From contig JASFWU010000001.1 in assembly GCA_050049035.1 (NCBI GenBank), positions 1 to 37,768 of the forward strand: DNA of 37,768 nucleotides, written 5' to 3'. The position numbers and the translations under genes were made by a program. The DNA comes from Akkermansiaceae bacterium (GTDB taxonomy: Bacteria; Verrucomicrobiota; Verrucomicrobiia; Verrucomicrobiales; Akkermansiaceae). The notes beneath the pieces were generated by a model that saw only the letters and a list, made by a program, of their open reading frames with translations, had not been told where the DNA came from and did not search any database. Positions 1,615-37,634 of this stretch are shown in pieces (the first letter of the stretch is position 1; each line of letters starts with the position of its first letter).

Positions 1615-1631
1615 AACAAAACAAAAAGAAA

Positions 1632-2117: not shown

Positions 2118-2142
2118 AATCTCAATCCAAACCAAAAATACC

Positions 2143-2514: not shown

Positions 2515-2620
2515 AAACCCAAGACGATGATGAATTGGATCATTTGGCTTCTACGGAAGACCAGGAAGAGGCCTCTCAAAAGACGCCGCCGCTTAACCCG
2601 TTTGTTGGAAATCTAGAGCA

Positions 2621-19433: not shown

Positions 19434-20195
19434 ATGGCAAACTTCTTTCCCCGTTGGACAAACTTGTTGCCGCTTAAAATTGCGGTTTGTCTCGGTGCTC
19501 TTGGAGCGACGGTGGTTGCTGGTATTACCTACTACGCAACTCCGAAGGCCCAGCGTGTCGGTTACCAGCCGACCCAGCCGATCCATTTTGATCACAGCCT
19601 CCACGTGAGCCAGTTGGGCATGGACTGCCGCTACTGCCATAGTTTTGTGGAGCATTCCGGCCACGCCAACGTTCCGACGGCCAATACCTGTTGGAATTGT
19701 CACAAGAACATCAAGAAGGGCTCGCCCAAGCTGGCCGGCCTCCGCGCTGCGATGGGGGTCGACGAGGACCACGTCGCTCTCACCGACGCCGACGGTAACC
19801 CGATTGAGGGACAGCCCATCGAGTGGGTCCGGGTTCACAAGGCTCCCGATTACGTTTATTTCAACCACTCAGCCCACCTCAACCGCGGGATTTCCTGCCA
19901 AAGCTGCCACGGCGACATCCACAAGATGGAAAAGGTGTATCACGCCGAGAGCCACTCCATGGGATGGTGCCTCGAGTGCCACCGCGCGCCGGAGAAGCAC
20001 CTCCGTCCGCTCGAGGAAGTCTACAATTTGAATTACGACCCGAAGGTCTATCTGGAGGAGAACGAGGTCATCGATACCTCGGGCATGATCGTCGCCAAAG
20101 GCGAGCGCATCACCGATCCGGAAGACTTTGGAAAACTCCTCAAGGCTCACTGGGGCATTCAGCCCAAGGAGTCCTGTGCCACCTGTCACCGTTAA
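19434..20195 (+). CDS. actA: Alternative Complex III subunit ActA, pentaheme cytochrome c
   Basis: 253 aa with an N-terminal anchor helix and five CxxCH motifs (CRYCH, CWNCH, CQSCH, CLECH, CATCH). It is the first gene of an actABCDEF-ordered cluster. Confidence 0.9.
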   Translation: MANFFPRWTNLLPLKIAVCLGALGATVVAGITYYATPKAQRVGYQPTQPIHFDHSLHVSQLGMDCRYCHSFVEHSGHANVPTANTCWNCHKNIKKGSPKLAGLRAAMGVDEDHVALTDADGNPIEGQPIEWVRVHKAPDYVYFNHSAHLNRGISCQSCHGDIHKMEKVYHAESHSMGWCLECHRAPEKHLRPLEEVYNLNYDPKVYLEENEVIDTSGMIVAKGERITDPEDFGKLLKAHWGIQPKESCATCHR

Positions 20196-20213
20196 TTTTT
20201 CTGACCACCGAAG

Positions 20214-23200
20214 ATGAGCAAACGCGTCTGGAACCCACCTGTCGCTCCTCAGAAGGGAGATTTGACCACCTCTTGGCGGAGTGTCGGTGAAAAAGAAGGG
20301 ACCGCTTCCTTCCGGAATCTCCTGGAGAAGGAGTTCCCTGCGGGCGACACCCTGACCGAAGAAGAACAAAAGGTCTCCCGCCGGAATTTCTCCAAACTGA
20401 TGGGGGCTTCATCGGCTCTTGCCGGTTTGGGCCTTGCTTCCTGCCGTCGTCCGGAAACCTACATTGTTCCATACAAGAAGGCTCCGGAGTGGATCGTTCC
20501 CGGAACTCCTCTTTTTTACTCAAGCACCCGCCCAAAGGCCGGCGGTGCGGTTCCCCTCGTGGTCACCACCTACGAAGGTCGCCCGACCAAGGTTGAACCC
20601 AATCCCGAGCACCCTGACTCTTCGGGCACCTGCGCTCAAACCCAGGCTTCGGTTCTCGACCTCTACTCTCCTTCGCGTTCCCGCAAGCTTCTCAAGAATG
20701 GTAAGCCGGCCCGCCAGGGTGAGCTTCAGGCTGTTCTTCAAGGACTTGATCTTTCCAAAACGGCCCTCGTTTTCGGGGAAGACGACTCTCCCACCCGGAA
20801 CCGCCTCGCCAAAGGGCTGGCGGCCAAAGGAGCCAAGCTCTACTCCTACGAAGCCGTCGCTGGCGAGCCCCTGACACCGGGCACGGCTCAAGTGGTCGAC
20901 TTCTCCAAGGCCAGCCGCATCCTTTCGCTGGACTGCGATTTCCTCGCCACCGATCCGATCGGCAACAGCAAGGCCTTCTCGAAGAAGCGCCAGGGCGGAA
21001 ACGCCAATTACGATCAGAAAGGTGACGTCGCTGCTGACAAGATGAACCGCCTTTACCAGGTGGAGACCCAGTTCAGCCTGACCGGCGGAATGGCCGATCA
21101 CCGTCTCCGCGTCACCCCAAGCCGGGTTCTCATGATTGCGGGCGAAATCGCCAAAGCACTGGGGCACGGATCCTACAAAGCGGAAGAAGGGGACAAAAAG
21201 GCTCTCTTTCCGGGCGCCGAAGATGCGGTTGATAAGTTTAATCAATGGATCAAAGCCTGCAAAGAGGATCTCGAGGAAGCCGCAAAAAAAGGTGAAGCCC
21301 TTATTCTCGCTGGTTCCCGCCAGTCGGCCGAGGTCAAGCAGATCGCCGCTTTCCTTAACGAGAAGCTTGGTTCCAAAGCGGTCAAAACCGTCAAGACCGA
21401 TCTCGGTCAGTATGGTTCGCTGACAGACCTCACTGCCAAGCTTGATGCCGGTGAAGTCGAGAACGTTCTTCTCCTCACGCCGTCGAATCCCGTCTTCGAT
21501 GCCGATGGCTTCGCTGATTCTCTCAAGAAAGCCAAGCTGAGCATCCACTGGGGTCTTCGCACTGACGCCACCGCTCACGCCTGCACCTGGCATGTTCCGG
21601 CGGCCCACTACCTTGAAAGCTGGGGCGACGCCCGCACCGAATCCGGCGTTCTTTCGCTGATTCAGCCCATGATTCTTCCGCTTTACGGCGGAATCTCCGA
21701 GATCGACCTCCTCCACGTCCTTGGTGGAGGAAAGTTCGGCGAGGGAGAGCTCCTTCCTTCCATGGGGGAGGTCAAAACCACCTTTGCTGAAGTCACAGGC
21801 AAGTCGGATCCCGAATCCTGGCGTAAGGCACTTGAGGAAGGGTTTGCTCCGGGCACTTCCTACACCGCCGCCACGTCCGAGACCACTCTTCCGGAGGTCA
21901 AACTGCCTTCACTTCCGAATGCCAAATCGCTCGAAGTGGTTTTCTCAACCGATGCTTCTGTTCTCGATGGACGTTTCATCGACAACGCCTGGCTTCAAGA
22001 GGCTCCCGATCCCGTCACCAAGCTGACCTGGGACAACGCGGCCCAGGTTTCTCCGGTAACCGCGAAGGAACTGGGGATTTACGACCGGGTCGTCAAACTC
22101 GAGACCTCGACTGCGGACGAAGCCCACACCGGCGTCGACGGAGGTCCGGGTGAGGGTGAAAACGCCCGCGCACCGTTCATCACCGTGAAAATCGGAGGTC
22201 GCGAACTGGAGATTCCCGTTCTCATTGCCTTCGGACAAGCCGACAATTCCATCGTCATCCCGGTGGGTTACGGTCAGGCCGCCGACGATGATCGCGCTGG
22301 GGTCGCTGCTCTCGATCCGAAGCACCCAACCGTGGGTGATGTCGGACTCAATACCGGTTTCAACACCTACCTTCTTCGTTCATCAGAAACTCCCTACATG
22401 GCAACGGGTGCCGAGGTTGCGGTCTCGGACGAATACTACGAGATCGCCCTGACCCAGGAGCACAACTCGATGTATGGACGAGCCCTCGCCCGCGAGATTT
22501 CCACCCAGGAAACGAGCGGCAAGAGTTTCGAAGAACAGAAGGAGGGAGTGAAGAAGCAGGGGATGGATTCCCACGCTCCCAAGAACATTTCCCTCTACAA
22601 GGCCCAGGGCGGTGTCTGGTCCAAGACCGAGCTCGCCGAGAAAACCCACCTCGCTGACGAGATTCACCAGTGGGGGATGGCTATCGATCTCAACACCTGC
22701 ACCGGTTGCAACGCCTGCCTCGTCGCCTGCCAGGCGGAGAACAACATTCCCGTGGTCGGTAAATCCCAGGTGGCCATGGGTCGCGAGATGCACTGGATTC
22801 GCATGGATCGCTACTTCTCCTCCCAGGAATACAAGTACGAAGACGGACACAAGGCCAAGGGTGACGACGGAAACAAGGTGAAGAATCCCGAGTGGGTTAC
22901 GCAGAACCCCGAGTCCATTCCCCAGCCTGTCGCCTGTGTTCAGTGCGAGATGGCTCCTTGCGAGACCGTTTGCCCGGTCAACGCCACCGTTCACACCGAG
23001 GAAGGCCTCAACTCCATGGCCTATAACCGCTGTATTGGAACCCGTTACTGCGCCAACAACTGCCCTTACAAGGCTCGTCGTTTCAACTTCTTCGATTACA
23101 ACAAGCGCAACCCACTCATCAAAGGAAACCTCTACAAAGGACCTTTCGGCGAGAAGCAGGTCGGAACCGCTCCGCACCTTCAGCGCAACCCGAATGTCAC

Positions 23201-23666
23201 CGTCCGGATGCGCGGCGTCATGGAAAAGTGCACCTACTGCGTGCAGCGTCTCGAGTCCGCCAAGATCAAGCAGAAGCAACAACAGAAGGTCAACAAGTAT
23301 GCCGCCGGCAAGAAGTCGCACGAGCTGACCGTCGACCGCACCAAGGACCTCCGCGTCAAGACCGACAGCGTCAAGACCGCCTGTCAGGATGCCTGCCCGT
23401 GCGATGCCATTTCCTTCGGGAACCTCCTCGACGAAAAGTCGAAGGTGGTTCGCGCAAAGGGCAACGACCTCGATTCGGTCCGCGCCATCATGGAGCATGT
23501 CACCGGCAAGGAATACACCCCGGTCAAAGGCAGCGCCCGCAACTACGACCTTCTGCAATACATCGGAACCCGCCCGCGCACGAGCTACCTCGCCCGCGTC
23601 AAGAATCCGAACAAGGAGATGCCTGACTTTAAGTTCCTCGGTCAGGCCACCATCAACATTCACTAA
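20214..23666 (+). CDS. actB: Alternative Complex III subunit ActB (fused molybdopterin-like B1 and 4Fe-4S B2 domains)
   Basis: 1150 aa with the Tat-like signal SRRNFSKLMGASSALAGLGLASC and a large MopB-like domain. Ferredoxin clusters follow: CTGCNACLVAC, CVQCEMAPCETVCP, CIGTRYCANNCP, CTYC and CQDACPC. Confidence 0.9.
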   Translation: MSKRVWNPPVAPQKGDLTTSWRSVGEKEGTASFRNLLEKEFPAGDTLTEEEQKVSRRNFSKLMGASSALAGLGLASCRRPETYIVPYKKAPEWIVPGTPLFYSSTRPKAGGAVPLVVTTYEGRPTKVEPNPEHPDSSGTCAQTQASVLDLYSPSRSRKLLKNGKPARQGELQAVLQGLDLSKTALVFGEDDSPTRNRLAKGLAAKGAKLYSYEAVAGEPLTPGTAQVVDFSKASRILSLDCDFLATDPIGNSKAFSKKRQGGNANYDQKGDVAADKMNRLYQVETQFSLTGGMADHRLRVTPSRVLMIAGEIAKALGHGSYKAEEGDKKALFPGAEDAVDKFNQWIKACKEDLEEAAKKGEALILAGSRQSAEVKQIAAFLNEKLGSKAVKTVKTDLGQYGSLTDLTAKLDAGEVENVLLLTPSNPVFDADGFADSLKKAKLSIHWGLRTDATAHACTWHVPAAHYLESWGDARTESGVLSLIQPMILPLYGGISEIDLLHVLGGGKFGEGELLPSMGEVKTTFAEVTGKSDPESWRKALEEGFAPGTSYTAATSETTLPEVKLPSLPNAKSLEVVFSTDASVLDGRFIDNAWLQEAPDPVTKLTWDNAAQVSPVTAKELGIYDRVVKLETSTADEAHTGVDGGPGEGENARAPFITVKIGGRELEIPVLIAFGQADNSIVIPVGYGQAADDDRAGVAALDPKHPTVGDVGLNTGFNTYLLRSSETPYMATGAEVAVSDEYYEIALTQEHNSMYGRALAREISTQETSGKSFEEQKEGVKKQGMDSHAPKNISLYKAQGGVWSKTELAEKTHLADEIHQWGMAIDLNTCTGCNACLVACQAENNIPVVGKSQVAMGREMHWIRMDRYFSSQEYKYEDGHKAKGDDGNKVKNPEWVTQNPESIPQPVACVQCEMAPCETVCPVNATVHTEEGLNSMAYNRCIGTRYCANNCPYKARRFNFFDYNKRNPLIKGNLYKGPFGEKQVGTAPHLQRNPNVTVRMRGVMEKCTYCVQRLESAKIKQKQQQKVNKYAAGKKSHELTVDRTKDLRVKTDSVKTACQDACPCDAISFGNLLDEKSKVVRAKGNDLDSVRAIMEHVTGKEYTPVKGSARNYDLLQYIGTRPRTSYLARVKNPNKEMPDFKFLGQATINIH

Positions 23667-23696
23667 CCTTCCAATCCTTTCCCGCGACTGAAACCC

Positions 23697-25226
23697 ATGG
23701 CCGAAGCGACCACATCGTCCGAGACTTCCGAAAGCACGGTGAAGATTCCCGTTCTTGAGCGCGAGAAGTTGATTCTCAACGAGCGTTCCTATAGCTGGAT
23801 CACCGATCGTATTTGCGGAGTGGTGGAAGGCCGCCAGCCCTTCCTCTGGTGGATCCTCTTCATTCCCTCAGCCATCATCGCCCTCGTCGGGGTGGTGGGC
23901 GGCCTGACCTACCTCGTTTCGACCGGGGTGGGGGTTTGGGGAAATACCAACCGCGTGATGTGGGGATGGCCGATTGTGAACTTCGTGTTCTGGATTGGTA
24001 TCGGTCACGCCGGAACGCTCATTTCCGCGATTCTTTTCCTGACTCGTCAAAACTGGCGGACCTCGATTAACCGTGCCGCGGAGGCCATGACGATTTTCGC
24101 GGTGATGTGCGCGGGGATTTTCCCGGCCTTCCACGTCGGTCGCGTTTGGATGGCCTGGTTCCTTGCTCCTATTCCCAACTCAAATGCGATCTGGCAGAAC
24201 TTCAAGTCGCCACTCCTTTGGGACGTTTTCGCGGTTTCGACTTACTTCACCGTTTCCTTGATCTTCTGGTTCCTCGGCATGGTGCCAGATCTCGCTACCA
24301 TCCGTGATCGCTGCAAGCCCGGCATCCGGAAGTTCATGTATGGCATTTTCTCCCTCGGGTGGCGCGGCGGCAACCGCCAGTGGAGCCACTACGAAATGGC
24401 ATACCTCCTTCTCGCTGCTCTTTCGACTCCGCTCGTGCTTTCGGTGCACTCGGTGGTCTCCTTTGACTTCGCAACTTCGGTGGTGCCCGGTTGGCACACC
24501 ACCATCTTTCCTCCCTACTTCGTGGCGGGTGCGATCTTTGGCGGATTTGCGATGGTGCTGACGATCATGATTCCCGCGCGGGCCATATACGGTCTGCACG
24601 ACATGATCACGATGAAGCACATCGACAACATGGCGAAGATCATTCTCCTGACGGGAACGATCGTGGGATACGCCTACTTGATGGAGCTCTTCATCGCCTT
24701 CTACTCCGGTGCCAAATACGAGGGCGCCGCCTTCACTTACCGCGCGACCGGCCCCTACTGGTGGGCTTACGCCGCGATGATGGGTCTCAACGTGATTTCA
24801 CCCCAGATCTTCTGGTTCAAGAGCATGCGCGAAAACCTCTGGGTCGTCATGGCCGTCGCGATGTGCGTGAACATCGGGATGTGGTTTGAGCGATTCGTGA
24901 TCATTGTCACCACGCTCGCCCGGATGTGGTTGCCTGGTGACTGGAAAACCTACAGTCCGAGTGCCGTCGATATCCTGACCTTTGTGGGAACGATCGGCAT
25001 GTTCCTCGCGCTCTTCCTTCTCTTCCTCCGCTTCCTGCCGTGCATCAACATCGCCGAGGTCAAATGGACCCTCAAGGAGAGCGATGCCCACGCCGAGGAC
25101 AAGGAGGCCCATCCTGATGAGGGCGTCGAGTTGATCGAGGCCTACCAATACGAAATTCACGAGAATCCCGAAGGATCCGCCAAAGAGGCCGGGATTGAAA
25201 CCGAAGCAAAACCTGTCGAGGCATGA
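23697..25226 (+). CDS. actC: Alternative Complex III subunit ActC (NrfD/PsrC-like quinol-interacting membrane subunit)
   Basis: 509 aa, polytopic NrfD-like protein in the canonical position after actB. Its stop overlaps the actD start (ATGA). Confidence 0.88.
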
Positions 25227-25780
25227 GCAAGAAAGTTCGTCGAGTATACGGCTACCTGGCCGAGTTCAAAAACGCCTCGCAGCTTTACAAGGCTGCCGAG
25301 AAGGTGCGCGATGCCGGCTTCAAGAAGTGGGATTGCTACACGCCATACCCGGTCCACGGTCTTGATGACGCGATGGGCGTGAAGCGTTCCATCCTGCCTT
25401 ACTTCGTTTTCGTGGGAGGCCTCACCGGATTCATCACCGCGATTGTTCTCGCTTACACCACGCAGGTGGGACTTTACCCGACCGTGGTGCAAGGCAAGCC
25501 GGCCAACATTTTCACCACCGCGGCCTTCTTCCCGGTGATGTTCGAGCTCACCATTCTCTTTTCCGGTTTCACCGTTCTTTTCGGGCTCCTTGGCCTGATG
25601 GGACTGCCCCGCTGGAACCACCCTCTCTTTACCAGCAAGAAGTTCGCCCGCGTGACCGACGACAAGTTCTTCATCGCGATCGAAGCGCGTGACGCCAAGT
25701 TTTCCGCCGAAGGAACGAAGGAGCTCTTGAGCGAAATCGGCGGCGACAACATCGAACTCGTGGAGGACGACTCCGAATAG
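25223..25780 (+). CDS. actD: Alternative Complex III subunit ActD (DUF3341)
   Basis: 185 aa. It has an N-terminal soluble segment [40 protein letters not shown] and two TM helices, typical of ActD. Confidence 0.85.
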
Positions 25781-25783
25781 ACC

Positions 25784-26410
25784 ATGAAATACTTTTTCCT
25801 CAGCCTGATTGCTCTTTCGGTCCTGACCGTCGGGGTCTTTGGTTTCCGTGGCGATAAGTTCTCGCTGCCACCGCTTTGGATTTTTCCCGACATGGATGAG
25901 CAGGACAAGGTGAAAGCCCAAACTGCCAACAGCTTCTTCGAAGATGGCATGGGGGCCCGCAAGCCGGTTCTCGGAACCGTTCCCCGCGGAGCGCAGGCCG
26001 GAGTGATGCCGATTGAGTTCGGGGCCGGTCGTTCGGGATACTATTACGACGGCAAGACCGAAGGGACCTTCGGAAACGGACTGCCCGAAGAGCTTGCGAT
26101 CAAAACCGAGGCTGACATGACCGGCTTGCTTGGTCGCGGAAAGGAAGTTTACAACGTCCACTGTGCCATTTGCCATGGCAAGTCCGGCAACGGTAAGGGA
26201 GTGGTTTCCGCTTACCTCGCCAAGAGCGACCCGGTCATCGCGGTTCCGACTCTTCTCGACAAAACCAAGGACAAGTATCCCGACGGCTACATCTACGAAG
26301 TCATTACCAACGGAAAGGGCAATATGGGAGCCTACGGTCACAACGTTCTCGTGCGTGACCGGTGGGCCATCGTCTCCTACCTCCGCGCTCTGCAGGCCTC
26401 GGCGAAATAG
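25784..26410 (+). CDS. actE: Alternative Complex III subunit ActE, monoheme cytochrome c
   Basis: 208 aa with a signal/anchor helix and a single CAICH heme motif. GKGNMGAYG provides a candidate Met ligand. Confidence 0.85.
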   Translation: MKYFFLSLIALSVLTVGVFGFRGDKFSLPPLWIFPDMDEQDKVKAQTANSFFEDGMGARKPVLGTVPRGAQAGVMPIEFGAGRSGYYYDGKTEGTFGNGLPEELAIKTEADMTGLLGRGKEVYNVHCAICHGKSGNGKGVVSAYLAKSDPVIAVPTLLDKTKDKYPDGYIYEVITNGKGNMGAYGHNVLVRDRWAIVSYLRALQASAK

Positions 26411-26437
26411 CAATTTTTCATTCGATCTACCAAGAAC

Positions 26438-27805
26438 ATGGCACACCAAGTGACATCAAAAGACATCCCGACCAACGGGGAGCATCTGGAGAAGGGCAGA
26501 ATTGCCAAACTCCAGATGATCACTGCAGTGATTGGCGGCGGTGGCGTGCTGGCCAGCATCATTTACCTCCTTGCCGGCGGAGGAGTGGAAACGGGCGAGC
26601 ATGAATCAAACTGGGTTCACGGATCCTACGCCTTCTCTTGGCTCTTTGCGGTCTTCTTTGTCACCACCATCGCTCTTGGCGGTTGCTTTTGGACCTTCCT
26701 CCACAACCTCTCCAACTCGGGGTGGGGGACCTCGGTGCGCCGCATGATGGAAAACCTCGGCTTCGTTTTTCCTTTCCTCTTCGTCCTTTTCATTCCCTTC
26801 CTCTTCCCACAGGTCCAGCAGTATCTCTACGAGTGGATGACTGCTTACAGCGAAGGAGTAGAGCGGGCTGCAAAGCTCGATGTCCCTCATGCCACTGCCA
26901 AGGACGGTTTGATGCACAGCCCTGATGCTCACGATCACCTTCTTGCGGCCAAGACCTTCTACTTGAATCCCGGGTTCTGGCTAGCCCGCTTCTTCTTCTA
27001 CTTCGTCGGACTTGGCTTCTTTATCTTTCTCGTCCGGAAGTTCTCGATTGCCCAGGACACCGACAAGAATCCCGGCATCAAGAATCTCTTCGCGGCCCGT
27101 AAGCATTCTTCATGGAGCATGATCATCTTCGCGGTGACTTTGACTTTCCTCGCCCTCGATTTCGTGATGGCTCTCGATTACTCATGGTTCTCCACCATGT
27201 TTGGAGTTTACGTCTTCGCTGGTTCGGCCTTGAACTCGATGGCGGTCCTCATCCTTACCGGGATCATCCTGCAAAAGATGGGTTTTCTGAAGAACGTGGT
27301 GACCAAGGAGCACTACCACATCATGGGTAAGTTCTGCTTCGCCTTCACCATCTTCTGGGCCTACGTCTCCTTCTCCCAATTCTTCCTGATCTGGTATGCC
27401 AACATCACCGAGGAAACCCGCTACTTCCTTCTCCGGAACACCGAGAACTGGAACCTCGTCAGCCTTGCACTCGTCTTCATGCACTTCGGTCTGCCGTTCC
27501 TGGCCCTCCTTCGTTCGGACGTGAAGAAGAGCACGAAGTTCATGACGATCTTCTGCTTCTACATCCTCTTCATGCATGTGATCGACGTCTATCACATGAT
27601 CATCCCGGAACGCGGACCTTCGGTGGGTCTCGTTGTCCAGCATCATCCTGTCCTGTGGATTGGTGGATCCTGGGTCGGTGACATCCTCGCCTTGGCCATC
27701 ACGATCTCGGCCTTCCTCTTCCTTTACCTTCGGAACCTTACTTCGGCTGCGCTCTATCCTCACCGCGATCCCCGCATCCTCGAGTCGGCCAATCTTCACA
27801 ACTAA
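26438..27805 (+). CDS. actF: Alternative Complex III subunit ActF (second NrfD-like membrane subunit)
   Basis: 455 aa, polytopic, in the canonical position after actE. Confidence 0.85.
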   Translation: MAHQVTSKDIPTNGEHLEKGRIAKLQMITAVIGGGGVLASIIYLLAGGGVETGEHESNWVHGSYAFSWLFAVFFVTTIALGGCFWTFLHNLSNSGWGTSVRRMMENLGFVFPFLFVLFIPFLFPQVQQYLYEWMTAYSEGVERAAKLDVPHATAKDGLMHSPDAHDHLLAAKTFYLNPGFWLARFFFYFVGLGFFIFLVRKFSIAQDTDKNPGIKNLFAARKHSSWSMIIFAVTLTFLALDFVMALDYSWFSTMFGVYVFAGSALNSMAVLILTGIILQKMGFLKNVVTKEHYHIMGKFCFAFTIFWAYVSFSQFFLIWYANITEETRYFLLRNTENWNLVSLALVFMHFGLPFLALLRSDVKKSTKFMTIFCFYILFMHVIDVYHMIIPERGPSVGLVVQHHPVLWIGGSWVGDILALAITISAFLFLYLRNLTSAALYPHRDPRILESANLHN

Positions 27806-27810
27806 GAATC

Positions 27811-28185
27811 ATGGATCACACCCGCGACAATCCGCTCAAGCGTTTCAAGGCGTTCTGGATCGCCCTGCTTCTGGTCTTTTCCTTTGGCGTGGCCCTGATT
27901 CTTCTGCGCCCTCTCACTCACGGGGACAACGACGGAGCGATGGACATCACTGCCAAGGGACGCCTTGAGACCAAGGAGGCGATCGATCGCGAGCAAAGCC
28001 AGGCGCTCAACACCGAGGGCCTTGAAAGTGCCTACGCGGAACAGCTCAAGACCTTCGCCGAAAACAAAATGACCAAAGGTGCCATGCCGGTGCCCGGTGC
28101 AGCTCCCGCGCCCGCTCCCGAAGCGCCCGCCGGGGACAAGCCGGCTCCGGAAGCCGAAACCAAACCAGCGCCCGCGGCCGAGTAG
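27811..28185 (+). CDS. Small single-pass membrane protein with Pro/Ala-rich tail (ACIII-associated, ActG/ActH-like position)
   Basis: 124 aa with one TM helix (FWIALLLVFSFGVALILL) and the tail PVPGAAPAPAPEAPAGDKPAPEAETKPAPAAE. It starts 5 nt after actF. No homology recognised. Confidence 0.5.
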   Translation: MDHTRDNPLKRFKAFWIALLLVFSFGVALILLRPLTHGDNDGAMDITAKGRLETKEAIDREQSQALNTEGLESAYAEQLKTFAENKMTKGAMPVPGAAPAPAPEAPAGDKPAPEAETKPAPAAE

Positions 28186-28209
28186 ATTTTTTAACGGACA
28201 ACCCAACTC

Positions 28210-29697: not shown

Positions 29698-29719
29698 AGT
29701 TTTCACGCCACTACACCCC

Positions 29720-30448: not shown

Positions 30449-30449
30449 C

Positions 30450-31249: not shown

Positions 31250-33157
31250 ATGAGTGCGGACACCCACAGCGCCCAAGACACCCACGATCACCACGACGAC
31301 CACCACCACGTTCTTCCCTGGTGGCAAAAGTATCTTTTCTCGACGGATCACAAGACCATCGGGATTCAGTACGGTCTCGCGGCAGGTGCCTTCCTCCTTT
31401 TTGGTTTCCTTTTGATGATCGTGATGCGCTGGAGCATCGCCTACCCGCATGAGCCTCTTCCCGGCTACCTCAGCTGGATGTTCACCGACGGCTGGAAAGC
31501 ACGTTGGTTGGTCGATGGCAAGGTCACCGGCGAGACCTACAACATGTTCGGTGCGATGCATGGAACGATCATGGTTTTCCTGGGAGTCGTGCCTCTCGGT
31601 TTTGCTGCGTTCGGTAACTACGTCACGCCACTTCAAATTGGTGCGCCCGACATGGCTTTCCCCAAGCTGAACATGGCCAGCTTCTGGATCTACCTCCTCG
31701 GTGGGCTCGTGATGTGCATGTCCTTCTTCATGGAATCTGGTGCCGCCAAATCCGGATGGACCAACTACTCGCCATTGGCGGGATACGCCGACAGTCAGAT
31801 TGTGAACCAGTTCCTCGCGGGACAAACGCAATGGCTCATCGGTCTGGTCCTATTGATCACCTCGTCGCTCCTCGGCTCGGTGAACTTCATCACCACCATC
31901 ATCCAGCTTCGCGCCAAGGGCCTCACCTGGATGCGCCTTCCCTTCTTTGTCTGGGCCATGCTAGTCACCGGTTTCCTCCTTCTCCTGGCCTTCCCGCCAC
32001 TTGAAGCCGCCGGCATCATGCAGCTCATGGACCGTGTCACCGGTTCTTCCTTCTTCATGCCTTCCGGCCTCTTCTCCTCGGCAGACGGCGTTGCGATGGA
32101 CCTTTCCGGATCCGGCAGCCCGCTTCTTTTCCAGCACCTCTTCTGGTTCCTGGGACACCCTGAGGTTTATGTCCTTCTTCTTCCGGCCATCGCTTGCGTC
32201 GCGGAGATCATTCCCTGCAACACCCGCAAGCCGCTTTGGGGATACAAGTCGATGGTCTACGCGGTCATCGCTCTCGGATTCCTCTCCTTCATCGTTTGGG
32301 CCCACCACATGTATCTCACTGGAATGGGACCAGTCATTTCGACCTTCTTCCAAACCACCACAGTGTTGATTTCGGTGCCGTCGGTGATTCTTCTCACCTC
32401 ACTGATCATCTCGCTTTGGGGTGGCTCCATTCGCTTCACCATGCCGATGATCTGGGCCGCGGCCTTCCTTCCGATGTTTGGAATCGGAGGTCTCACCGGT
32501 CTGCCTTTGGCCTTCAACTTGGCGGATCTCCACCTTCACGACACCTACTACGTGATCGGTCACTTTCACTACGTGGTGGCTCCGGGCATCCTCTTCGGTC
32601 TCTTTGCCGGGGTTTATCACTGGTATCCCAAGATGACCGGTCGATACATGGACAACTTCCTCGGCCATCTTCATTTCTGGCCGTCCCTCATTTGCATGAA
32701 CTTCCTGTTCTTCCCCATGCTCACCCAGGGGATGGCTGGCTTCCACCGTCGTTGGTATAACGGGGGTGAAGGCTACATCGAGAAGGCCGCTGAAGGCGTG
32801 AACGTCTTCGGAATCACCGTTGCGGAGAAGATCTCCCTCAACGAGGTCATGACCGCTTCCGCCATTGCTCTCGCCATTTTCCAGGTTCCCTTCCTGATTA
32901 ACATGGCAGTCAGTTACTGGCGCGGCAAGAAAGTCACCAGCGACAACCCATGGGATGCCACCACTCTCGAGTGGGCCACCCCGACGCCTCCGGGACACGG
33001 AAACTTCACTTTCGAGCCTTCGATTTACCGGGGTCCTTACGAATACAGCCGTCCTGATCACGACACCGACTTCTTCCCGCAGTGGGAAGAGCCCAAGCGG
33101 GACAAGCCGGCTGAGAAACCTGCCGAGGCTCCCGAAAAGGAGACCACCAAGGCCTAG
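31250..33157 (+). CDS. ctaD: Cytochrome c oxidase (A-type heme-copper oxidase) subunit I
   Basis: 635 aa. All ligand motifs are present: FSTDHKTIGIQY, GAMHGTIMVF, LFWFLGHPEVYVLLLP (including the HPEVY Glu/Tyr of A1-type enzymes), WAHHMY and HDTYYVIGHFHYV. The N-terminus is His-rich (THDHHDDHHH). Confidence 0.95.
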   Translation: MSADTHSAQDTHDHHDDHHHVLPWWQKYLFSTDHKTIGIQYGLAAGAFLLFGFLLMIVMRWSIAYPHEPLPGYLSWMFTDGWKARWLVDGKVTGETYNMFGAMHGTIMVFLGVVPLGFAAFGNYVTPLQIGAPDMAFPKLNMASFWIYLLGGLVMCMSFFMESGAAKSGWTNYSPLAGYADSQIVNQFLAGQTQWLIGLVLLITSSLLGSVNFITTIIQLRAKGLTWMRLPFFVWAMLVTGFLLLLAFPPLEAAGIMQLMDRVTGSSFFMPSGLFSSADGVAMDLSGSGSPLLFQHLFWFLGHPEVYVLLLPAIACVAEIIPCNTRKPLWGYKSMVYAVIALGFLSFIVWAHHMYLTGMGPVISTFFQTTTVLISVPSVILLTSLIISLWGGSIRFTMPMIWAAAFLPMFGIGGLTGLPLAFNLADLHLHDTYYVIGHFHYVVAPGILFGLFAGVYHWYPKMTGRYMDNFLGHLHFWPSLICMNFLFFPMLTQGMAGFHRRWYNGGEGYIEKAAEGVNVFGITVAEKISLNEVMTASAIALAIFQVPFLINMAVSYWRGKKVTSDNPWDATTLEWATPTPPGHGNFTFEPSIYRGPYEYSRPDHDTDFFPQWEEPKRDKPAEKPAEAPEKETTKA

Positions 33158-33191
33158 ACTGAATCACTTCATTCCAATCCCTCACTGATCC

Positions 33192-34979
33192 ATGGAAATT
33201 CCATTTGTCGTTAATGCCCGGAAAGACACCGGTCTCTTCAACTCCAAGGTAGGCATCTGGCTCTTCCTGGCTTCCGAGGTGACCTTGTTCGGTGGTCTTT
33301 TCTCCGGGTATCTTTTCCTCCGACTCTACGCGGACTACCCTTGGCCCGAGCGCGCGCTTCCCGTCCTGCCCGGTCTCATCAACACCTTCGTCCTCATTGG
33401 ATCGTCGGTCACGGTGGTTTTCGCTTGGGCGGCGCTCAAGATGCGTGAGTGGAAAAAGTTTCAGCTCTACATGTCGATCACCTTGGCATGCGCGGCCATA
33501 TTCATGGTTCTGAAAGGAGTCGAGTATTCCGCCAAGTTTGGTCACCAAGGTGTTCAGATTGCTGGTGACGGACCGGTCCAGGGACGCGAAATCGTCGAGG
33601 GCCACGTCCACTATGCAAAGGTGGGCGAAGACGGGTTGATTGAGGAGGTCAAGAAAGAGAATAAGGACGACGAAGGAGTCTTCCTTGCCAATAAGGTTCT
33701 CTTCAAGGTCAGCGAATTGTCCTTCGTGCTTAAGCGCCCGACTCATGAGGCCTACGTCGATTCCATTTTGGAACAAGCGGCGGCTGCCGAATCAAAGATC
33801 ACCCTCACCGAAGCATACCGCGTCATTGATCCCGACCAGTTGATGGAGGGCAAGATGAGCCGTGAACAGCTACTCAAGGGCGACGAGGCCGTCGTGGTGG
33901 ACGCAGGTGAGGAGCTTTCCATCGATGCTCTCGACAAGATGGAGGATGCCTTTCTTGATGCGCGAAGCTACGATCAGAAGTTGTCGACCAAGTTTCTTGC
34001 TGCGTCCTGGGATTGGGTCCGTGAACAACCCGGATATTCCGAGAAAGAAATGCAGGGAACCTACGTGGTCACCGAGGAAATCTGGACCGACCGCCGTAAA
34101 GAAGATGCCGACAAGCTCAAGCAGCTGACTTTGCAGGCTCCGCTTTCAGTGTCCTTCAAAGTGGACCCGCCGTTCACTCTTGTTCTCGGGCCCAACGATC
34201 TTGTCAAGTATGACAAGGAAAGTGGCCAGCTTCGCGATGACACCACCATGGCCGGTGAGCTACTCCCAAGTCCGATCATCATGGGAGTCGATGCGCTTGA
34301 CTTCCGGACCACCGCGCAGCGTGCCGAGGCCGAGGGTCTTGATCCACTTCCAGTGATCGAGGGCACCTGGCTTCTCACCCACAAGCCTGTCCACCATCAC
34401 GGTGACGCCGGTGAAAAGGGCGAAGGCGGAGATGATCGAAACACCTTCAAGAAGATCTGGGATTGCCACATGGCCTGGCTCAAGACCGAGGAAAAGCGTC
34501 TTGCCGAGAAGGACCGGGAGCCCACCGACAATGATCGCTATCGGGTAAATTGGGACCAGATCATCGCCTACAAGGAACTCGATTATGACGCTGCGAAGGT
34601 TGAAGAATACTGCGCTGACCGTGATGACGACAAAGAGCTCTACAGCTCGGGTCTCTTCGATCTCAAGGGCTTTGCGGGTGCCAATCACAGCAAGTTCGAT
34701 TTCCCTCATCTCGAAATTCCCCGCGAGAGGGTGAACTTTGAGTCCACCTTCACTCCGAAGTGGAACACCTATTACGCCATCTACTTCACCATCACCGGTC
34801 TTCACGGTCTTCACGTGATCGGGGGCGCGATTGTTCTTGGTTACTACCTCTTCTTCGGACGGAAGATGTATGAATCCAATCCCGAGTGGCTGGCGAACAG
34901 GGTCGAGATTGGTGGCCTCTTCTGGCACTTTGTTGACCTCGTCTGGATCTTCCTCTTCCCGATCCTCTACTTGATGTAA
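33192..34979 (+). CDS. ctaE: Cytochrome c oxidase subunit III carrying a ~400-aa hydrophilic insertion
   Basis: 595 aa. The N-terminal ~115 aa (VGIWLFLASEVTLFGGLF...VLKGVEYSAKFGH) and the C-terminal ~75 aa (YYAIYFTITGLHGLHVIGG...GLFWHFVDLVWIFLFPILY) are canonical subunit III helices. A long acidic non-membrane segment separates them. Confidence 0.85.
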   Translation: MEIPFVVNARKDTGLFNSKVGIWLFLASEVTLFGGLFSGYLFLRLYADYPWPERALPVLPGLINTFVLIGSSVTVVFAWAALKMREWKKFQLYMSITLACAAIFMVLKGVEYSAKFGHQGVQIAGDGPVQGREIVEGHVHYAKVGEDGLIEEVKKENKDDEGVFLANKVLFKVSELSFVLKRPTHEAYVDSILEQAAAAESKITLTEAYRVIDPDQLMEGKMSREQLLKGDEAVVVDAGEELSIDALDKMEDAFLDARSYDQKLSTKFLAASWDWVREQPGYSEKEMQGTYVVTEEIWTDRRKEDADKLKQLTLQAPLSVSFKVDPPFTLVLGPNDLVKYDKESGQLRDDTTMAGELLPSPIIMGVDALDFRTTAQRAEAEGLDPLPVIEGTWLLTHKPVHHHGDAGEKGEGGDDRNTFKKIWDCHMAWLKTEEKRLAEKDREPTDNDRYRVNWDQIIAYKELDYDAAKVEEYCADRDDDKELYSSGLFDLKGFAGANHSKFDFPHLEIPRERVNFESTFTPKWNTYYAIYFTITGLHGLHVIGGAIVLGYYLFFGRKMYESNPEWLANRVEIGGLFWHFVDLVWIFLFPILYLM

Positions 34980-35016
34980 TCTCGATTTTCCCAACCGAAT
35001 CCAACCTCATTCACTT

Positions 35017-35412
35017 ATGGCTGATTCCATTGCAGAAGTTCAGAAAGCGAAAAAGCTCTACATGTTCATCGGGCTTCTTCTCTTCTTTTTCACCGTTGTC
35101 ACCGTCATGGTGGCCACTGTTGAGGACCTCGACTTTGGCGAGCACGGCTTCGACAAGGCTGATGCCATCATTGGTCTGCTCATCGCGGCCTTCAAAGCTT
35201 CCCTGGTGATGATCATCTTCATGCACCTCAACCATGAGAGGCCGTTGATCTACTTCGTCTACATCCTCGGAATCGTGATGGCCATTTTCTGTATGTGGCT
35301 GATTGGTTGGTCCAAGAGCGATATCACCAGCTTCGGTGATCCCAACGCGAAAGACGGTTTCTACGACCCTGCAAAACCTGCGACTGATCCCCACGGTGGA
35401 TCGGACGACTAA
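35017..35412 (+). CDS. ctaF: Prokaryotic cytochrome oxidase subunit IV family protein (COX4_pro/CyoD-like)
   Basis: 131 aa, three TM helices, with the family-typical FKASLVMIIFMHLNHE motif. It is positioned after ctaE. Confidence 0.75.
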   Translation: MADSIAEVQKAKKLYMFIGLLLFFFTVVTVMVATVEDLDFGEHGFDKADAIIGLLIAAFKASLVMIIFMHLNHERPLIYFVYILGIVMAIFCMWLIGWSKSDITSFGDPNAKDGFYDPAKPATDPHGGSDD

Positions 35413-35425: not shown

Positions 35426-35629
35426 ATGTCGATCAAAGGCTTCCATCTCATCTTCATCTTTGTCGCGGCCCTTTTCAGTGCGGGTGTCGGGGTGTGGGCC
35501 TTGTTCCTGGATGACAAGTCCAGCGGGATCGGCACCAAGATCTTCGGCGGGGTCACTCTCGCTGCCGCAGTCGCTCTCGTGATCTACGGCATCTACTTTC
35601 GCCGCAAAGCCAAAGACATCATTGTCTGA
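35426..35629 (+). CDS. Small two-helix membrane protein in the oxidase operon
   Basis: 67 aa: MSIKGFHLIFIFVAALFSAGVGVWALFL...GGVTLAAAVALVIYGIYFRRKAK. It starts 13 nt after ctaF on the same strand. No family recognised. Confidence 0.45.
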   Translation: MSIKGFHLIFIFVAALFSAGVGVWALFLDDKSSGIGTKIFGGVTLAAAVALVIYGIYFRRKAKDIIV

Positions 35630-35655: not shown

Positions 35656-35877
35656 ATGAACTCCATCCTCACTCCTTTGGCTTGCGCCACTTGCGCCCAG
35701 GCTTTCGAACACGGCGGAAAAGATGCCGCCGGATGGGCCATTGCCCTCATGCTTCTCGTCATCGTTCCTCTCGTGACGATGGTGGTTTGGTTCATGATCA
35801 AGATCGCAAAGCGCGAGAAGTCAGGCCTCGATCCTGAATTGTGCGACGACTACGTCGCTCCGCCCTCAAATTCCTAA
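35656..35877 (+). CDS. Small single-pass membrane protein with N-terminal CxxC
   Basis: 73 aa: MNSILTPLACATCAQAFEHGG, then a TM helix WAIALMLLVIVPLVTMVVWFMI. It ends 12 nt before coxB. No family recognised. Confidence 0.45.
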   Translation: MNSILTPLACATCAQAFEHGGKDAAGWAIALMLLVIVPLVTMVVWFMIKIAKREKSGLDPELCDDYVAPPSNS

Positions 35878-35889: not shown

Positions 35890-36696
35890 ATGTTTATTCC
35901 TCTCAACTGGTCAAAATGGCTCGGCATCCCGGAGAATTTCTCGGATCACGGAAGTAACGTTGATCACCTGATCGACATTGTTCACTGGTTCATGTTCGCC
36001 CTTTTCGTGGGCTGGACCCTCTTCTTCCTCTTCTGTCTCTGGAAGTTCCGCGCTTCCAAGAATCCGAAGGCCAGCTACCACGGAGTTCAAAACCACGTTT
36101 CCAGCCACCTGGAAATCGGTGTGGTCATTATCGAAGCCGTCCTTCTCCTCGGTTTTGCTTTCCCGCTTTGGTGGGAGCGCACCGATCAATTCCCCGAAGT
36201 GCAAAAGACCGACCCGACCCGCGTTCGCGTGATCGCTTATCAGTTTGGTTTCCAGTATCACTATCCTGGTAAGGACGGGAAGTTCGGGCGAATTGACCGG
36301 ACCCTCGTGAAAGGACCGGGCGATGCCTGCATCGACCCGGACGATCCCCAGGGATACGACGATTTCATCTCGGGCACGCTCAAGCTGCCCGTCGATCGCA
36401 ACGCCATCCTCCAGATCACTTCGACCGACGTCATTCACAACTACTCCATCGTCCCGATGCGCATCCAGCAGGACGCCATGCCCGGCAAGGACATCCCGAT
36501 GTGGTTCAAGCCGATCAAGGAGCTCGAGACCGGTGTGGTTTGTGGCCAGCTTTGCGGTGAGAACCATGCGGTCATGAAGGGCACCATGGAGGTGATTGCC
36601 CAGAAGAAGTATGACAGCTGGGCGATCGAGCAGAGCGACGCTGCCTTCAAGAAGTCACCGGGTGGCAAAGCCGCCAGTGAGGTGGCCAAGAGGTAG
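35890..36696 (+). CDS. coxB: Cytochrome c oxidase subunit II (CuA subunit, no fused cytochrome c domain)
   Basis: 268 aa with two N-terminal TM helices and a cupredoxin domain. CuA ligands are DVIHNYSI and CGQLCGENHAVM (C-x3-C-x3-H-x2-M). There is no CxxCH motif. Confidence 0.9.
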   Translation: MFIPLNWSKWLGIPENFSDHGSNVDHLIDIVHWFMFALFVGWTLFFLFCLWKFRASKNPKASYHGVQNHVSSHLEIGVVIIEAVLLLGFAFPLWWERTDQFPEVQKTDPTRVRVIAYQFGFQYHYPGKDGKFGRIDRTLVKGPGDACIDPDDPQGYDDFISGTLKLPVDRNAILQITSTDVIHNYSIVPMRIQQDAMPGKDIPMWFKPIKELETGVVCGQLCGENHAVMKGTMEVIAQKKYDSWAIEQSDAAFKKSPGGKAASEVAKR

Positions 36697-36719: not shown

Positions 36720-37634
36720 TTACATCATGTTGGCCGACTCCTTTTTAATCGGCTTGGGAATGTGGTGTTTCCGGGCCATGGCCTGATAAGTCAGGTTTGA
36801 AACGCCGCGGATGACATTGGCTCGTCCCGAGATCCAGCTGCCATAGGCTTTGGTGCGGGTCTTGCGTTCGATGATCCCCACAAGGATGTAAGGGTAGGTC
36901 TTTCCGTTTTCTCCTTTCGCGAGGAGAATCCCCATATCGCCGCAGCACATCGCAGTGCTGCCGGTCTTGTTAAACACCTTGGTTCCTTCAGGAACTGACC
37001 TCACGCGGGTGTAAAGCCGGTCGATGCCGGGTAAACCCATAAGCCGGAGAATCTCGGTTGAGTAGGGAAGTCGCTTGTTCCAAAGTTCGATGAGAAAGCG
37101 GGTGTAATCGGCAGCCGATTCCCGGTTGCTGTAGGTTCGTCCGCCCGCCGGGATGTATTCCACCAGGCTCAACTGACGACAAAGCTGCGGATAATGGGCC
37201 TTCAAGAGCCTCGAGGTTTTTGCGGGCCCACCGGTTTGCCGCATCACCCAATTGGTGGAGTCGTTGTCACTCTTTTGAATCATGAGCTCCATGTGCTTCC
37301 GGCTGATGGGTCCGTATCTCAGCTGACCGGCATTGACCTGATGAAAAAAGGCCAGCGCAAGGTAGGGCTTGATCATGCTGGCGGCCTGAAGGCTGGTGTT
37401 TTCGTTGATGCTGGCAAGCTTTTGGCGGGTGGTCAGGTCATAGACCACCCAGGCCGTCCGCTCGTTGCTTTGCACGGCGCCGCTGGCCCGCTGGGATTTT
37501 ACGAATCGTTCGATGGCGGTTTCCAAGGAGCTTTCGTTGTCATCTTTGGCGATGGCGGTAGTTGAGAGCCCGAGGGAGGTGATGAGAACTCCGGCAGCTG
37601 CCGGAACGAATGATGATCTCAAAATTCGCTTCAT
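36720..37634 (-). CDS. Secreted class A beta-lactamase-fold serine hydrolase
   Basis: 304 aa with a signal peptide. The three class A motifs are present: SMIK (SxxK in AASMIKPYL), SDN and KTGS. I could not see a clear omega-loop ExxLN, so true beta-lactamase activity is uncertain. Confidence 0.7.
   Translation of the reverse strand: MKRILRSSFVPAAAGVLITSLGLSTTAIAKDDNESSLETAIERFVKSQRASGAVQSNERTAWVVYDLTTRQKLASINENTSLQAASMIKPYLALAFFHQVNAGQLRYGPISRKHMELMIQKSDNDSTNWVMRQTGGPAKTSRLLKAHYPQLCRQLSLVEYIPAGGRTYSNRESAADYTRFLIELWNKRLPYSTEILRLMGLPGIDRLYTRVRSVPEGTKVFNKTGSTAMCCGDMGILLAKGENGKTYPYILVGIIERKTRTKAYGSWISGRANVIRGVSNLTYQAMARKHHIPKPIKKESANMM

What the first reader, a model, noticed from the sequence alone, without database searches (positions are those of the whole stretch)
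33540..34755. About 400-aa hydrophilic domain inserted into a periplasmic loop of cytochrome oxidase subunit III
CtaE here is 595 aa, against roughly 200-270 aa for typical bacterial subunit III. Canonical helices flank the insertion: ...AAIFMVLKGVEYSAKFGH upstream and YYAIYFTITGLHGLHVIGG... downstream. The intervening segment, about residues 118-520, is acidic and has no TM helices, no CxxCH and no obvious metal motif except a short HHHGD. By standard subunit III topology, this loop (between the helices equivalent to V and VI) faces the P side. The enzyme would therefore carry a large extra periplasmic domain next to where cytochrome c and ACIII would dock. I do not recognise the inserted domain.
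Basis: partly seen in the sequence, partly recalled or inferred. Interest (0 to 1): 0.65.

Follow-up and report, generated by a model that had tools for sequence, protein, structure and literature searches.

The report
Oxidase subunit III with periplasmic domain
In a whole order of bacteria (Verrucomicrobiales), the normally membrane-buried subunit III of the aa3 cytochrome oxidase carries a 220-530-residue folded domain of unknown type on its outer face; the domain is real and expressed, but its role is only inferred.

Summary
ctaE (33192-34979, +) is one intact 595-aa gene. It encodes a five-helix subunit III whose loop between helices 3 and 4 is about 4 residues in solved homologues and 405 residues here (118-522, net charge -33).

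It is not an assembly artefact. Contigs from four independent studies are collinear without indels. Metatranscriptome contigs cross both junctions. Thousands of homologues share the architecture, including cultured Prosthecobacter and isolate 'Verrucomicrobiaceae bacterium 227'.

Family topology and the positive-inside rule place the insertion in the periplasm.

A roughly 70-residue beta module and a few residues are conserved order-wide; the periphery varies. HHHGD is not conserved.

The gene always lies in one ACIII / cbb3-like / aa3 cluster.

Best reading, which is inferred: a rigid, non-redox, built-in accessory subunit on the oxidase's outer face. It probably packs on enlarged subunit I loops and faces ACIII.

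This is a new variant of a known kind, of moderate interest.

The parts
33192..34979 (+). ctaE: cytochrome oxidase subunit III, 595 aa, single intact ORF
   Evidence: ORF list. Pfam COX3 61.8 bits against a 23.8 cut-off. 100% identical proteins occur in other assemblies. DNA contigs of 4 studies are collinear.
33192..33542 (+). N-terminal core, residues 1-117: transmembrane helices 1-3 (equivalent to helices III-V of seven-helix subunit III)
   Evidence: AF2 helices 14-48, 58-83 and 87-117. Foldseek matches COX3 chains with probability 0.99. Aligns to 2yev_A 609-719. Mean column identity 93%.
33543..34757 (+). Inserted periplasmic domain, residues 118-522 (405 aa, pI 4.7)
33546..33728 (+). Membrane-proximal N-terminal beta region (residues 119-179) with the invariant G137-H138 ('EGH') motif, starting directly after helix 3
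   Evidence: AF2 strands 119-124, 132-139, 141-144, 150-153 and 169-179. G137 and H138 are 33/33 in the divergent alignment and at least 85% in the 60-sequence alignment.
33921..34127 (+). Long helices (residues 244-277 and 296-312). The stretch about 263-316 is largely absent from short-insert relatives, so it is a later addition.
   Evidence: AF2 secondary structure. Column occupancy in the 60-sequence alignment.
34119..34322 (+). Conserved central beta module (residues about 310-377) with RDDT (348-351), G355 and VDxxDFR (366-372). This is the part shared by the whole order.
   Evidence: hhalign of window-type against Prosthecobacter-type insertions: probability 98.9%, E 3e-17 over these columns. 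D349, G355, D367 and D370 are near-invariant.
34380..34442 (+). Variable acidic, His- and Gly-rich loop (residues 397-417) containing HHHGD
   Evidence: pLDDT below 50. No conservation. Absent in short-insert relatives.
34443..34508 (+). Helix 418-439 with W423 and H426 ('WDCH')
   Evidence: AF2. W423 and H426 are 31/33 but only 50-85% in the wider family.
34707..34748 (+). C-terminal beta hairpin (residues 506-519) leading into helix 4
   Evidence: AF2 strands 506-509 and 514-519. G496, S518 and P522 are conserved.
34758..34976 (+). C-terminal core, residues 523-595: transmembrane helices 4-5 (equivalent to VI-VII)
   Evidence: AF2 helices 526-562 and 564-594. Pfam COX3 profile 180-255. Mean column identity 97%.
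31250..33157 (+). ctaD (subunit I, 635 aa) with enlarged P-side loops
   Evidence: Pfam COX1 3.9e-129. Insertions against M. smegmatis CtaD in loops I-II (+21), III-IV (+5), V-VI (+15) and XI-XII (about +15). The loop I-II insertion is conserved in all loci.
35017..35412 (+). ctaF (subunit IV-like, 131 aa)
   Evidence: Pfam COX4_pro. Syntenic in all loci.
35426..35629 (+). Conserved small membrane protein (67 aa, two hydrophobic helices), a candidate extra oxidase subunit
   Evidence: 34 homologues in the related loci.
35656..35877 (+). Conserved small membrane protein (73 aa) with an N-terminal CxxC and one helix
   Evidence: 32 homologues, all with the CxxC.
35890..36696 (+). coxB (subunit II, CuA motif CGQLCGENHAVM, no cytochrome c domain)
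   Evidence: NCBIfam CoxB 7.6e-32. Motif conserved. No CxxCH.
19434..27805 (+). Alternative complex III genes actABCDEF, upstream in the same orientation
   Evidence: Pfam hits: multiheme c (ActA), Fer4 (ActB), NrfD (ActC), ActD, cytochrome c (ActE). The assignment of actF rests on its position and on conserved synteny, not on a family hit (none). Five CxxCH in ActA.

Best explanation
ctaE encodes a five-helix subunit III of an aa3-type oxidase. A lineage-specific, independently folding alpha/beta domain (405 aa here, 220-530 aa in relatives) has been inserted into the very short P-side loop between helices 3 and 4. Shown: it is one gene, it is transcribed, it is under constraint, and the domain occurs only in this position in subunit III across Verrucomicrobiales. 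Inferred from family topology: the domain lies in the periplasm. The model gives no flexible linker at either end: strands start one residue after helix 3 and end a few residues before helix 4. Most of the order-wide conserved residues lie in these strands or in the central beta module (G137-H138, RDDT, VDxxDxR, G496, S518); that the module lies near the base is an assumption, since no coordinates were available. The helices and His/acid-rich loops vary. I therefore take it to be a rigid, non-redox superstructure, a built-in accessory subunit on the outer face of the oxidase. It probably packs against the enlarged P-side loops of subunit I. Subunit III is the subunit that contacts ACIII in the one solved ACIII-aa3 supercomplex, so the domain probably forms part of the periplasmic interface. 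There it would hold ACIII's heme module, or a membrane-anchored cytochrome c, in register with CuA. The docking role is inference, not demonstration.
For: The gene is single and intact, with canonical halves and an approximately 4-residue loop in homologues. DNA from four studies is collinear and RNA contigs span both junctions. The architecture is conserved in 1421 + 6695 homologues, including Prosthecobacter fusiformis, P. debontii and isolate 227. The AF2 fold is confident and starts and ends at the membrane helices. The domain is found only inside COX3 proteins among 1.84 billion representatives. A core module is homologous across subfamilies, with conserved base residues and a variable periphery. 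There is no CxxCH, almost no Cys, and no known cofactor motif. Synteny with actD-F, the cbb3-like genes and ctaD/F/coxB is invariant in 35 species-level genomes and in a more distant Verrucomicrobiota MAG. The P-side loops of CtaD are co-enlarged and conserved. Subunit III with five helices mediates the ACIII contact in F. johnsoniae (PMC8361435).
Against: No direct evidence shows any contact with ACIII, cytochrome c or subunit I; no multimer model or coordinates were available. In P. fusiformis, actABCD are not immediately upstream of the cluster, so tight genetic linkage to the whole ACIII is not universal. The neighbouring membrane-anchored cytochrome c is itself acidic (pI 4.6-4.7), which argues against simple electrostatic steering by an acidic pad. 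The invariant His and Asp residues could instead indicate a metal or catalytic site. The insertion evolves much faster than its flanks (29-75% against 81-98% identity), which is unusual for a tight interface.
Confidence: 0.45

Rival explanations
1. The domain carries a metal site, or acts as a metal or proton buffer. Examples would be a Cu, Zn, Mn or Ca site built from H118, H138 and D349/D367/D370, with the His-rich loops collecting copper for CuA/CuB assembly, detoxifying reactive species, or buffering protons at the exit side.
For: H118, G137-H138, D349, D367 and D370 are invariant or nearly so across inserts down to about 20% identity. His content is 3.3-4.3%, and most members have a 20-residue window with 4-7 His. 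A conserved neighbouring small protein carries a CxxC that, from the charged residues after its helix, would face the periplasm. Sco1, CtaA and CtaB follow the cluster in relatives.
Against: There is no match to any metal-binding family. H426 and H499 are only 50-85% conserved in the wide family. His-rich windows move around the sequence and lie in low-confidence loops. Cys and CxxCH are absent. Clustering of the conserved residues in space could not be checked because no coordinates were available.
Confidence: 0.2
2. The domain binds something outside the respiratory chain. It could tether the oxidase to peptidoglycan, to the outer membrane or to another periplasmic partner, or act as a spacer in the enlarged periplasm of these bacteria.
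For: It is a large, rigid, surface-exposed periplasmic domain with a variable periphery. It has no redox motif. One weak, non-significant RodZ_C hit was found (E 0.12).
Against: No significant match to any cell-wall-binding or protein-interaction family was found. The domain never occurs outside subunit III.
Confidence: 0.1
3. The insertion is a tolerated, largely functionless expansion of a permissive loop that drifted in size.
For: Length varies from about 220 to about 530 aa, with clade-specific additions. It evolves much faster than the rest of the operon.
Against: It is retained without frameshift or loss across an order and thousands of sequences. It has a confidently folded core, an invariant motif set and a homologous central module at E 3e-17. 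No complete homologue among those listed lacks it.
Confidence: 0.1
4. The insertion is an artefact or a removable element: two genes fused by a sequencing error, an intein, or a cytoplasmic domain.
For: None beyond the unusual length.
Against: Independent assemblies are collinear with no indel. RNA contigs span both junctions without joints. No Hint/intein or other Pfam domain was found and no intein-like fold. Composition matches the flanks. Homology-based topology and the K/R distribution place it outside.
Confidence: 0.02

Closest known systems
Five-helix subunit III of A-family heme-copper oxidases (E. coli CyoC, B. subtilis QoxC, actinobacterial CtaE, F. johnsoniae aa3 subunit III)
   Same: Same five transmembrane helices, same order, and adjoining model positions on either side of the insertion. 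Same operon partners. In F. johnsoniae and M. smegmatis this subunit is the contact to complex III or ACIII.
   Different: Those proteins are 180-206 aa with a loop of a few residues and no extramembrane domain. This one has 405 extra residues and scores far below the NCBIfam equivalog cut-offs (81 against 190 bits).
Thermus thermophilus caa3 oxidase subunit I/III fusion (PDB 2yev)
   Same: Best-scoring solved relative of the membrane core (E 2.9e-19). It is another case of subunit III being remodelled by gene-level rearrangement.
   Different: There the change is an end-to-end fusion to subunit I. The V-VI loop stays short and no new domain is added.
Supernumerary P-side subunits and accessory proteins of other oxidases (mitochondrial COX6B/Cox12; LpqE and SOD on the mycobacterial III2IV2 supercomplex). 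Functional analogy only, from general knowledge.
   Same: These are non-catalytic protein masses sitting on the outer face of complex IV near subunits II and III, and they influence partner docking or supercomplex stability.
   Different: They are separate polypeptides with unrelated folds. No sequence or structural similarity to them was detected here.
ACIII-aa3 supercomplex of Flavobacterium johnsoniae (EMD-7447 / PDB 6BTM)
   Same: ACIII genes are adjacent to aa3 genes, and the five-helix subunit III is the interaction subunit.
   Different: The F. johnsoniae subunit III is described as a plain five-helix subunit, with no insertion mentioned. F. johnsoniae ActA has a sixth, mobile heme domain, which is missing here (five CxxCH). 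Here a divergent cbb3-like gene set lies between ACIII and aa3.

Membership tests
Cytochrome oxidase subunit III (Pfam PF00510 COX3) | Profile match above the curated gathering score | tested here: met
   61.8 bits against a 23.8 cut-off, in two stretches.
Cytochrome oxidase subunit III (Pfam PF00510 COX3) | Helical bundle superposable on solved subunit III | tested here: met
   The AF2 model has 5 helices. Foldseek matches COX3 chains of bovine, E. coli, mycobacterial and other oxidases with probability 0.94-0.99 over about 108 residues (helices 1-3). Helices 4-5 are supported by sequence only.
Cytochrome oxidase subunit III (Pfam PF00510 COX3) | Encoded with subunits I, II and IV of an A-family oxidase | tested here: met
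   ctaD, ctaF and coxB are adjacent. The arrangement is conserved in the 35 related loci, where the contig extends far enough, and in the 3 further genomes.
NCBIfam equivalogs CtaE_Actin / CyoC / QoxC | Whole-protein score above the curated cut-off | tested here: not met
   81, 78.7 and 77.7 bits against cut-offs of 190, 223.75 and 239.9. It is a superfamily member, not one of these equivalogs.
Periplasmic (P-side) location of the V-VI loop | N-in topology with an odd number of helices before the loop | tested here: inconclusive
   Three helices precede the insertion, and K/R are enriched in the N-terminus and loops 2-3 and 4-5. The N-in orientation of subunit III is established from solved structures, but no experimental sidedness or dedicated topology predictor was available.
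Intein | Hint domain and splice-junction motifs | tested here: not met
   No Hint or intein Pfam hit at E<=1 in 23 members. No Hint-like fold by Foldseek.
Cytochrome c or cupredoxin redox domain | CxxCH heme motif, or a Cu-binding Cys/His/Met set with a cupredoxin fold | tested here: not met
   No CxxCH. Cys frequency about 0.2% or lower. No cupredoxin or cytochrome match.
ACIII-aa3 respiratory supercomplex | Co-encoded ACIII and aa3 oxidase | tested here: met
   actA-F lie upstream in the window. actD-F/aa3 synteny holds wherever the 35 loci extend far enough upstream, and in a distant Verrucomicrobiota MAG and isolate 227. actABCD are not adjacent in P. fusiformis.
ACIII-aa3 respiratory supercomplex | Physical association through subunit III | not testable with these tools
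   Known only for F. johnsoniae. It needs purification, cryo-EM or multimer modelling.

The most novel reading that the evidence does not exclude
The insertion is a previously undescribed protein fold that serves as the periplasmic bridge wiring alternative complex III (and perhaps the neighbouring cbb3-like oxidase's cytochromes) to the aa3 oxidase. That would make an obligate supercomplex whose interface is encoded inside subunit III. Alternatively, it holds a new metal site on the P-side of a heme-copper oxidase.
Probability: 0.3. Interest if true: 0.65.

Novelty: new variant of a known kind. Interest (0 to 1): 0.5.

Why it matters
Subunit III is described in textbooks as a purely membrane-embedded subunit. 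Its known roles are lipid binding, protection from suicide inactivation and, in some bacteria, contact with complex III. Here a whole bacterial order that is abundant in seawater, fresh water and soil has added 25-60 kDa of folded periplasmic protein to it. The outer loops of subunit I are enlarged as well, the CuA motif is altered (Gln for Glu), and two conserved small membrane proteins are encoded alongside. So the outer face of this oxidase differs from every solved example.

If the domain mediates ACIII docking, it would show how supercomplex interfaces can evolve by domain insertion rather than by adding subunits. It would also give a tractable handle, through loop replacement in cultivable Prosthecobacter, to test what supercomplex formation contributes.

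The domain has no Pfam family and no PDB neighbour, so it is also a candidate new fold family.

Tried and rejected
1. Assembly artefact or fused genes. Rejected by independent contigs, RNA contigs and thousands of homologues.

2. Intein or mobile element. No Hint domain, composition identical to the flanks, and an order-wide vertical pattern with conserved synteny.

3. Known domain by sequence. Pfam on 23 window-type and 5 short-type inserts gave only noise (E>=0.047). NCBIfam gave nothing. A PDB profile search gave 0 hits at E<=10.

5. Free-standing homologues or other host proteins. The exhaustive profile search found 48 representatives. Nine of ten tested are COX3 proteins, and the tenth (P0154, 236 aa) and the other short hits look like fragments.

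6. HHHGD as a metal motif. Not conserved.

7. Electrostatic pad for a basic cytochrome c. The adjacent cytochrome c is acidic.

8. Clustering of conserved His and Asp in 3D. This could not be done because model coordinates are not exposed.

9. Literature. Four full-text searches found no description of this insertion. The primary ACIII supercomplex paper is not held.

10. Outgroup without the insertion. I did not find one, because searches are saturated by insertion-bearing sequences. The point of origin within Verrucomicrobiota is therefore not fixed.
Full report
**1. The observation**

Pfam COX3 matches it above threshold but in two pieces.

NCBIfam models of five-helix subunit III (QoxC, CyoC, actinobacterial CtaE) match residues 19-122 and 517-595 at adjoining model positions. 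In the profile alignment to the Thermus caa3 I/III fusion, the two halves abut at residues 719/723. The canonical protein is therefore complete, and its approximately 4-residue loop has been replaced by residues 118-522 (nt 33543-34757).

This segment has no hydrophobic stretch, 84 acidic against 51 basic residues (pI 4.7), two Cys and no CxxCH. Its GC and GC3 are like the flanks and ctaD.

**2. Reality of the feature**

A search with the whole protein gave 1421 homologues. The 120 best listed carry the insertion (apart from 403-497 aa partial sequences): complete ones are 544-644 aa, with two longer variants of 733 and 795 aa. Identity goes down to 47%, and hits are named Akkermansiaceae, Verrucomicrobiaceae or Verrucomicrobiales where named.

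- A short-insert relative (P0162, 441 aa) retrieved 6695 more proteins. The 120 listed are 413-547 aa and include cultured Prosthecobacter fusiformis and P. debontii.
- Near-identical DNA occurs in at least 20 metagenome runs of at least 10 studies from seawater, algae, biofilm and wetland.
- Contigs from four of these studies are collinear over 33100-35100, with three base substitutions and no indel or joint.
- Metatranscriptome contigs from marsh, marine and freshwater samples cover the insertion and cross both junctions (33447-33761 and 34732-34997) without joints.

Fusion by sequencing error, RNA-level removal and pseudogene status are thus excluded.

**3. Sidedness**

AlphaFold2 with a 66-sequence alignment gives five membrane helices (14-48, 58-83, 87-117, 526-562, 564-594). 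Helices 1-3 superpose on solved COX3 chains (Foldseek probability up to 0.99).

In all solved A-family oxidases the subunit III N-terminus is on the N-side. This is established knowledge and is consistent with the I/III fusion in 2yev. The loop after the third helix of the five-helix form (= helix V) is therefore on the P-side. The K/R distribution agrees: N-terminus 3, loop 2-3 4, loop 4-5 3, loop 1-2 1. I regard the periplasmic location as well supported but not experimentally shown.

**4. What the domain is**

The insertion alone is modelled with pLDDT 85.4 and pTM 0.78, in agreement with the full-length model. Its parts, in order:

- Beta strands start one residue after helix 3 (119-124, 132-139 and following).
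- A small alpha/beta part.
- Two long helices (244-277, 296-312).
- A beta module (319-370).
- Short helices.
- A disordered acidic/His loop (397-417) containing HHHGD.
- Further helices (418-475).
- A beta hairpin (506-519) that runs into helix 4.

A profile of the insertion was scored against 1.84 billion representative proteins and found only 48 hits. The complete hits start the match at about residue 117-118. Of ten hits with unusual geometry, nine are COX3 proteins and the tenth (P0154, 236 aa) has no family hit. The remaining short hits look like fragments of the same protein. The domain was therefore found only as part of subunit III, never as a separate protein.

**5. Conservation pattern**

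Within the window's subfamily the membrane core is 93-97% identical by column and the insertion 61%. Across loci the insertion is 29-75% identical while its flanks are 81-98%.

Across 33 very divergent members (inserts 251-526 aa, down to about 20% identity), these residues remain conserved: H118, G137, H138, D349, G355, S360, D367, D370, W423, H426, L437, G496, S518 and P522.

In a 60-sequence alignment that includes the Prosthecobacter type, the order-wide invariants shrink to G137-H138, RDxT (348-351), G355 and VDxxDxR (366-372). H426 and H499 are only 50-85% conserved there. Regions 142-156, 263-316 and 398-419 are subfamily-specific additions.

hhalign shows that the central beta module (residues about 310-377) is homologous between the two subfamilies (probability 98.9%, E 3e-17).

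His is mildly enriched (3.3-4.3%), and most members have a His-rich window, but its position varies.

H118 belongs to the canonical core, because it aligns with His in the Thermus and mycobacterial proteins.

**6. Context**

The gene order in the window is:

- actABCDEF
- a divergent CcoN-like, CcoO-like and CcoP-like set (far below the curated cut-offs)
- ctaD, ctaE, ctaF
- two small membrane proteins
- coxB

. The part from actD to coxB is conserved in all 35 species-level genomes found, as far as each contig extends. All of these are Verrucomicrobiales, Akkermansiaceae, Verrucomicrobiaceae or less precisely labelled Verrucomicrobiota. It is also conserved in isolate 227 and in a more distant Verrucomicrobiota MAG with a 469-aa CtaE. 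In P. fusiformis the cluster starts at actE, and actABCD are not adjacent.

Further features of the neighbours:

- CtaD carries insertions in four P-side loops relative to M. smegmatis CtaD. The loop I-II insertion is conserved in all loci.
- CoxB has no cytochrome c domain, and its CuA motif reads CGQLCGxxHxxM throughout the clade.
- ActA has five hemes and no sixth-heme domain. ActE is basic (pI 8.7). The anchored cytochrome c is acidic.

**7. Mechanism**

The literature held here states that in the F. johnsoniae ACIII-aa3 supercomplex the contact is made by a five-helix subunit III. The equivalent CtaE/CtaF make the contact in mycobacteria (PMC8361435).

Three things point to the most likely role. 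These are the rigid mounting of the domain, its conserved strands next to the membrane helices with a variable periphery, and the absence of any redox motif together with the co-enlarged subunit I loops. I read the domain as a fixed periplasmic superstructure of the oxidase, a built-in accessory subunit. It probably contributes to the periplasmic interface with ACIII and to the positioning of the electron donor relative to CuA (confidence 0.45). The steps from 'periplasmic domain' to 'docking' are inference.

The main rival is a metal or proton-buffering site formed by the invariant His and Asp residues and the His-rich loops (0.2). Envelope tethering (0.1) and neutral expansion (0.1) remain possible. 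Artefact, intein or cytoplasmic location is effectively excluded (0.02).

**8. Comparison and novelty**

The protein is a member of the COX3 superfamily but not of the curated CtaE/CyoC/QoxC equivalogs. It differs from every solved subunit III I could align by having an extramembrane domain in the V-VI loop. A 382-aa COX3 chain in PDB 9f5x matched only through its last two helices, and I did not examine its extension.

Four full-text searches found no description of the insertion. Database annotation is simply 'cytochrome c oxidase subunit 3'.

I class it as a new variant of a known kind, containing an apparently undescribed domain family. Interest is moderate (0.5). It is surprising for oxidase specialists and experimentally accessible in cultured Prosthecobacter, but domain accretion on oxidase subunits has precedents and the function is still inferred.

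Noticed in passing
window 28210-31220 (+): Between ACIII and the aa3 genes lie three genes resembling CcoN (495 aa), CcoO (one CxxCH) and CcoP (anchored monoheme, pI 4.6). They score far below the curated cbb3 cut-offs (for example 83.8 against 583 bits). The set is conserved in the related loci wherever the contig reaches that far upstream. It may be a divergent C-family oxidase or a NOR-like enzyme. The 'anchored cytochrome c' may belong to it rather than to aa3.
   Followed up: partly
window 35426-35629 and 35656-35877 (+): Two small membrane proteins lie between ctaF and coxB and are conserved in 34 and 32 related loci. One is 67 aa with two helices. The other is 73 aa with an invariant N-terminal CxxC (AC[AS]TC) followed by one helix. 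Neither has a Pfam or NCBIfam family. They are candidate extra subunits or copper-handling factors.
   Followed up: partly
window 31250-33157 (ctaD): Subunit I is 635 aa. It has insertions in four P-side loops relative to M. smegmatis CtaD (I-II +21, III-IV +5, V-VI +15, XI-XII about +15) and a charged C-terminal tail. The loop I-II insertion is almost invariant in the family and longer in Prosthecobacter.
   Followed up: partly
window 35890-36696 (coxB): The CuA motif reads CGQLCGENHAVM. The Glu that bridges CuA and the Mg/Mn site in canonical oxidases is Gln in 36 of the 38 loci (one has Asn, one 'CAQLCG'). There is no fused cytochrome c domain.
   Followed up: partly
window 19434-20195 (actA) and 25784-26410 (actE): ActA has five CxxCH and lacks the sixth-heme mobile domain of F. 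johnsoniae. ActE is basic (pI 8.7), in contrast to the acidic subunit III domain (pI 4.7).
   Followed up: no
L006 7653-9818; L032 7653-9365; proteins P0030 (795 aa), P0135 (716 aa), P0109 (644 aa): Some relatives carry a further 50-200 residues inside the insertion, mostly just after the first beta strands, so the domain keeps growing by accretion.
   Followed up: no
L036 (Prosthecobacter fusiformis) 1-4345: In P. fusiformis the cluster begins with actE-actF. An aminotransferase gene lies upstream, and actABCD are not adjacent, so the ACIII genes appear split in that genome.
   Followed up: partly
window 36720-37634 (-): A 304-aa secreted class A beta-lactamase-like protein (Pfam Beta-lactamase2, 1.1e-19) is encoded on the opposite strand just after coxB.
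   Followed up: no
window 27806-28209: This roughly 400-nt gap between actF and the CcoN-like gene corresponds to a 122-160 aa gene without any family in isolate 227, P. fusiformis and the distant MAG. I did not examine it in the window.
   Followed up: no
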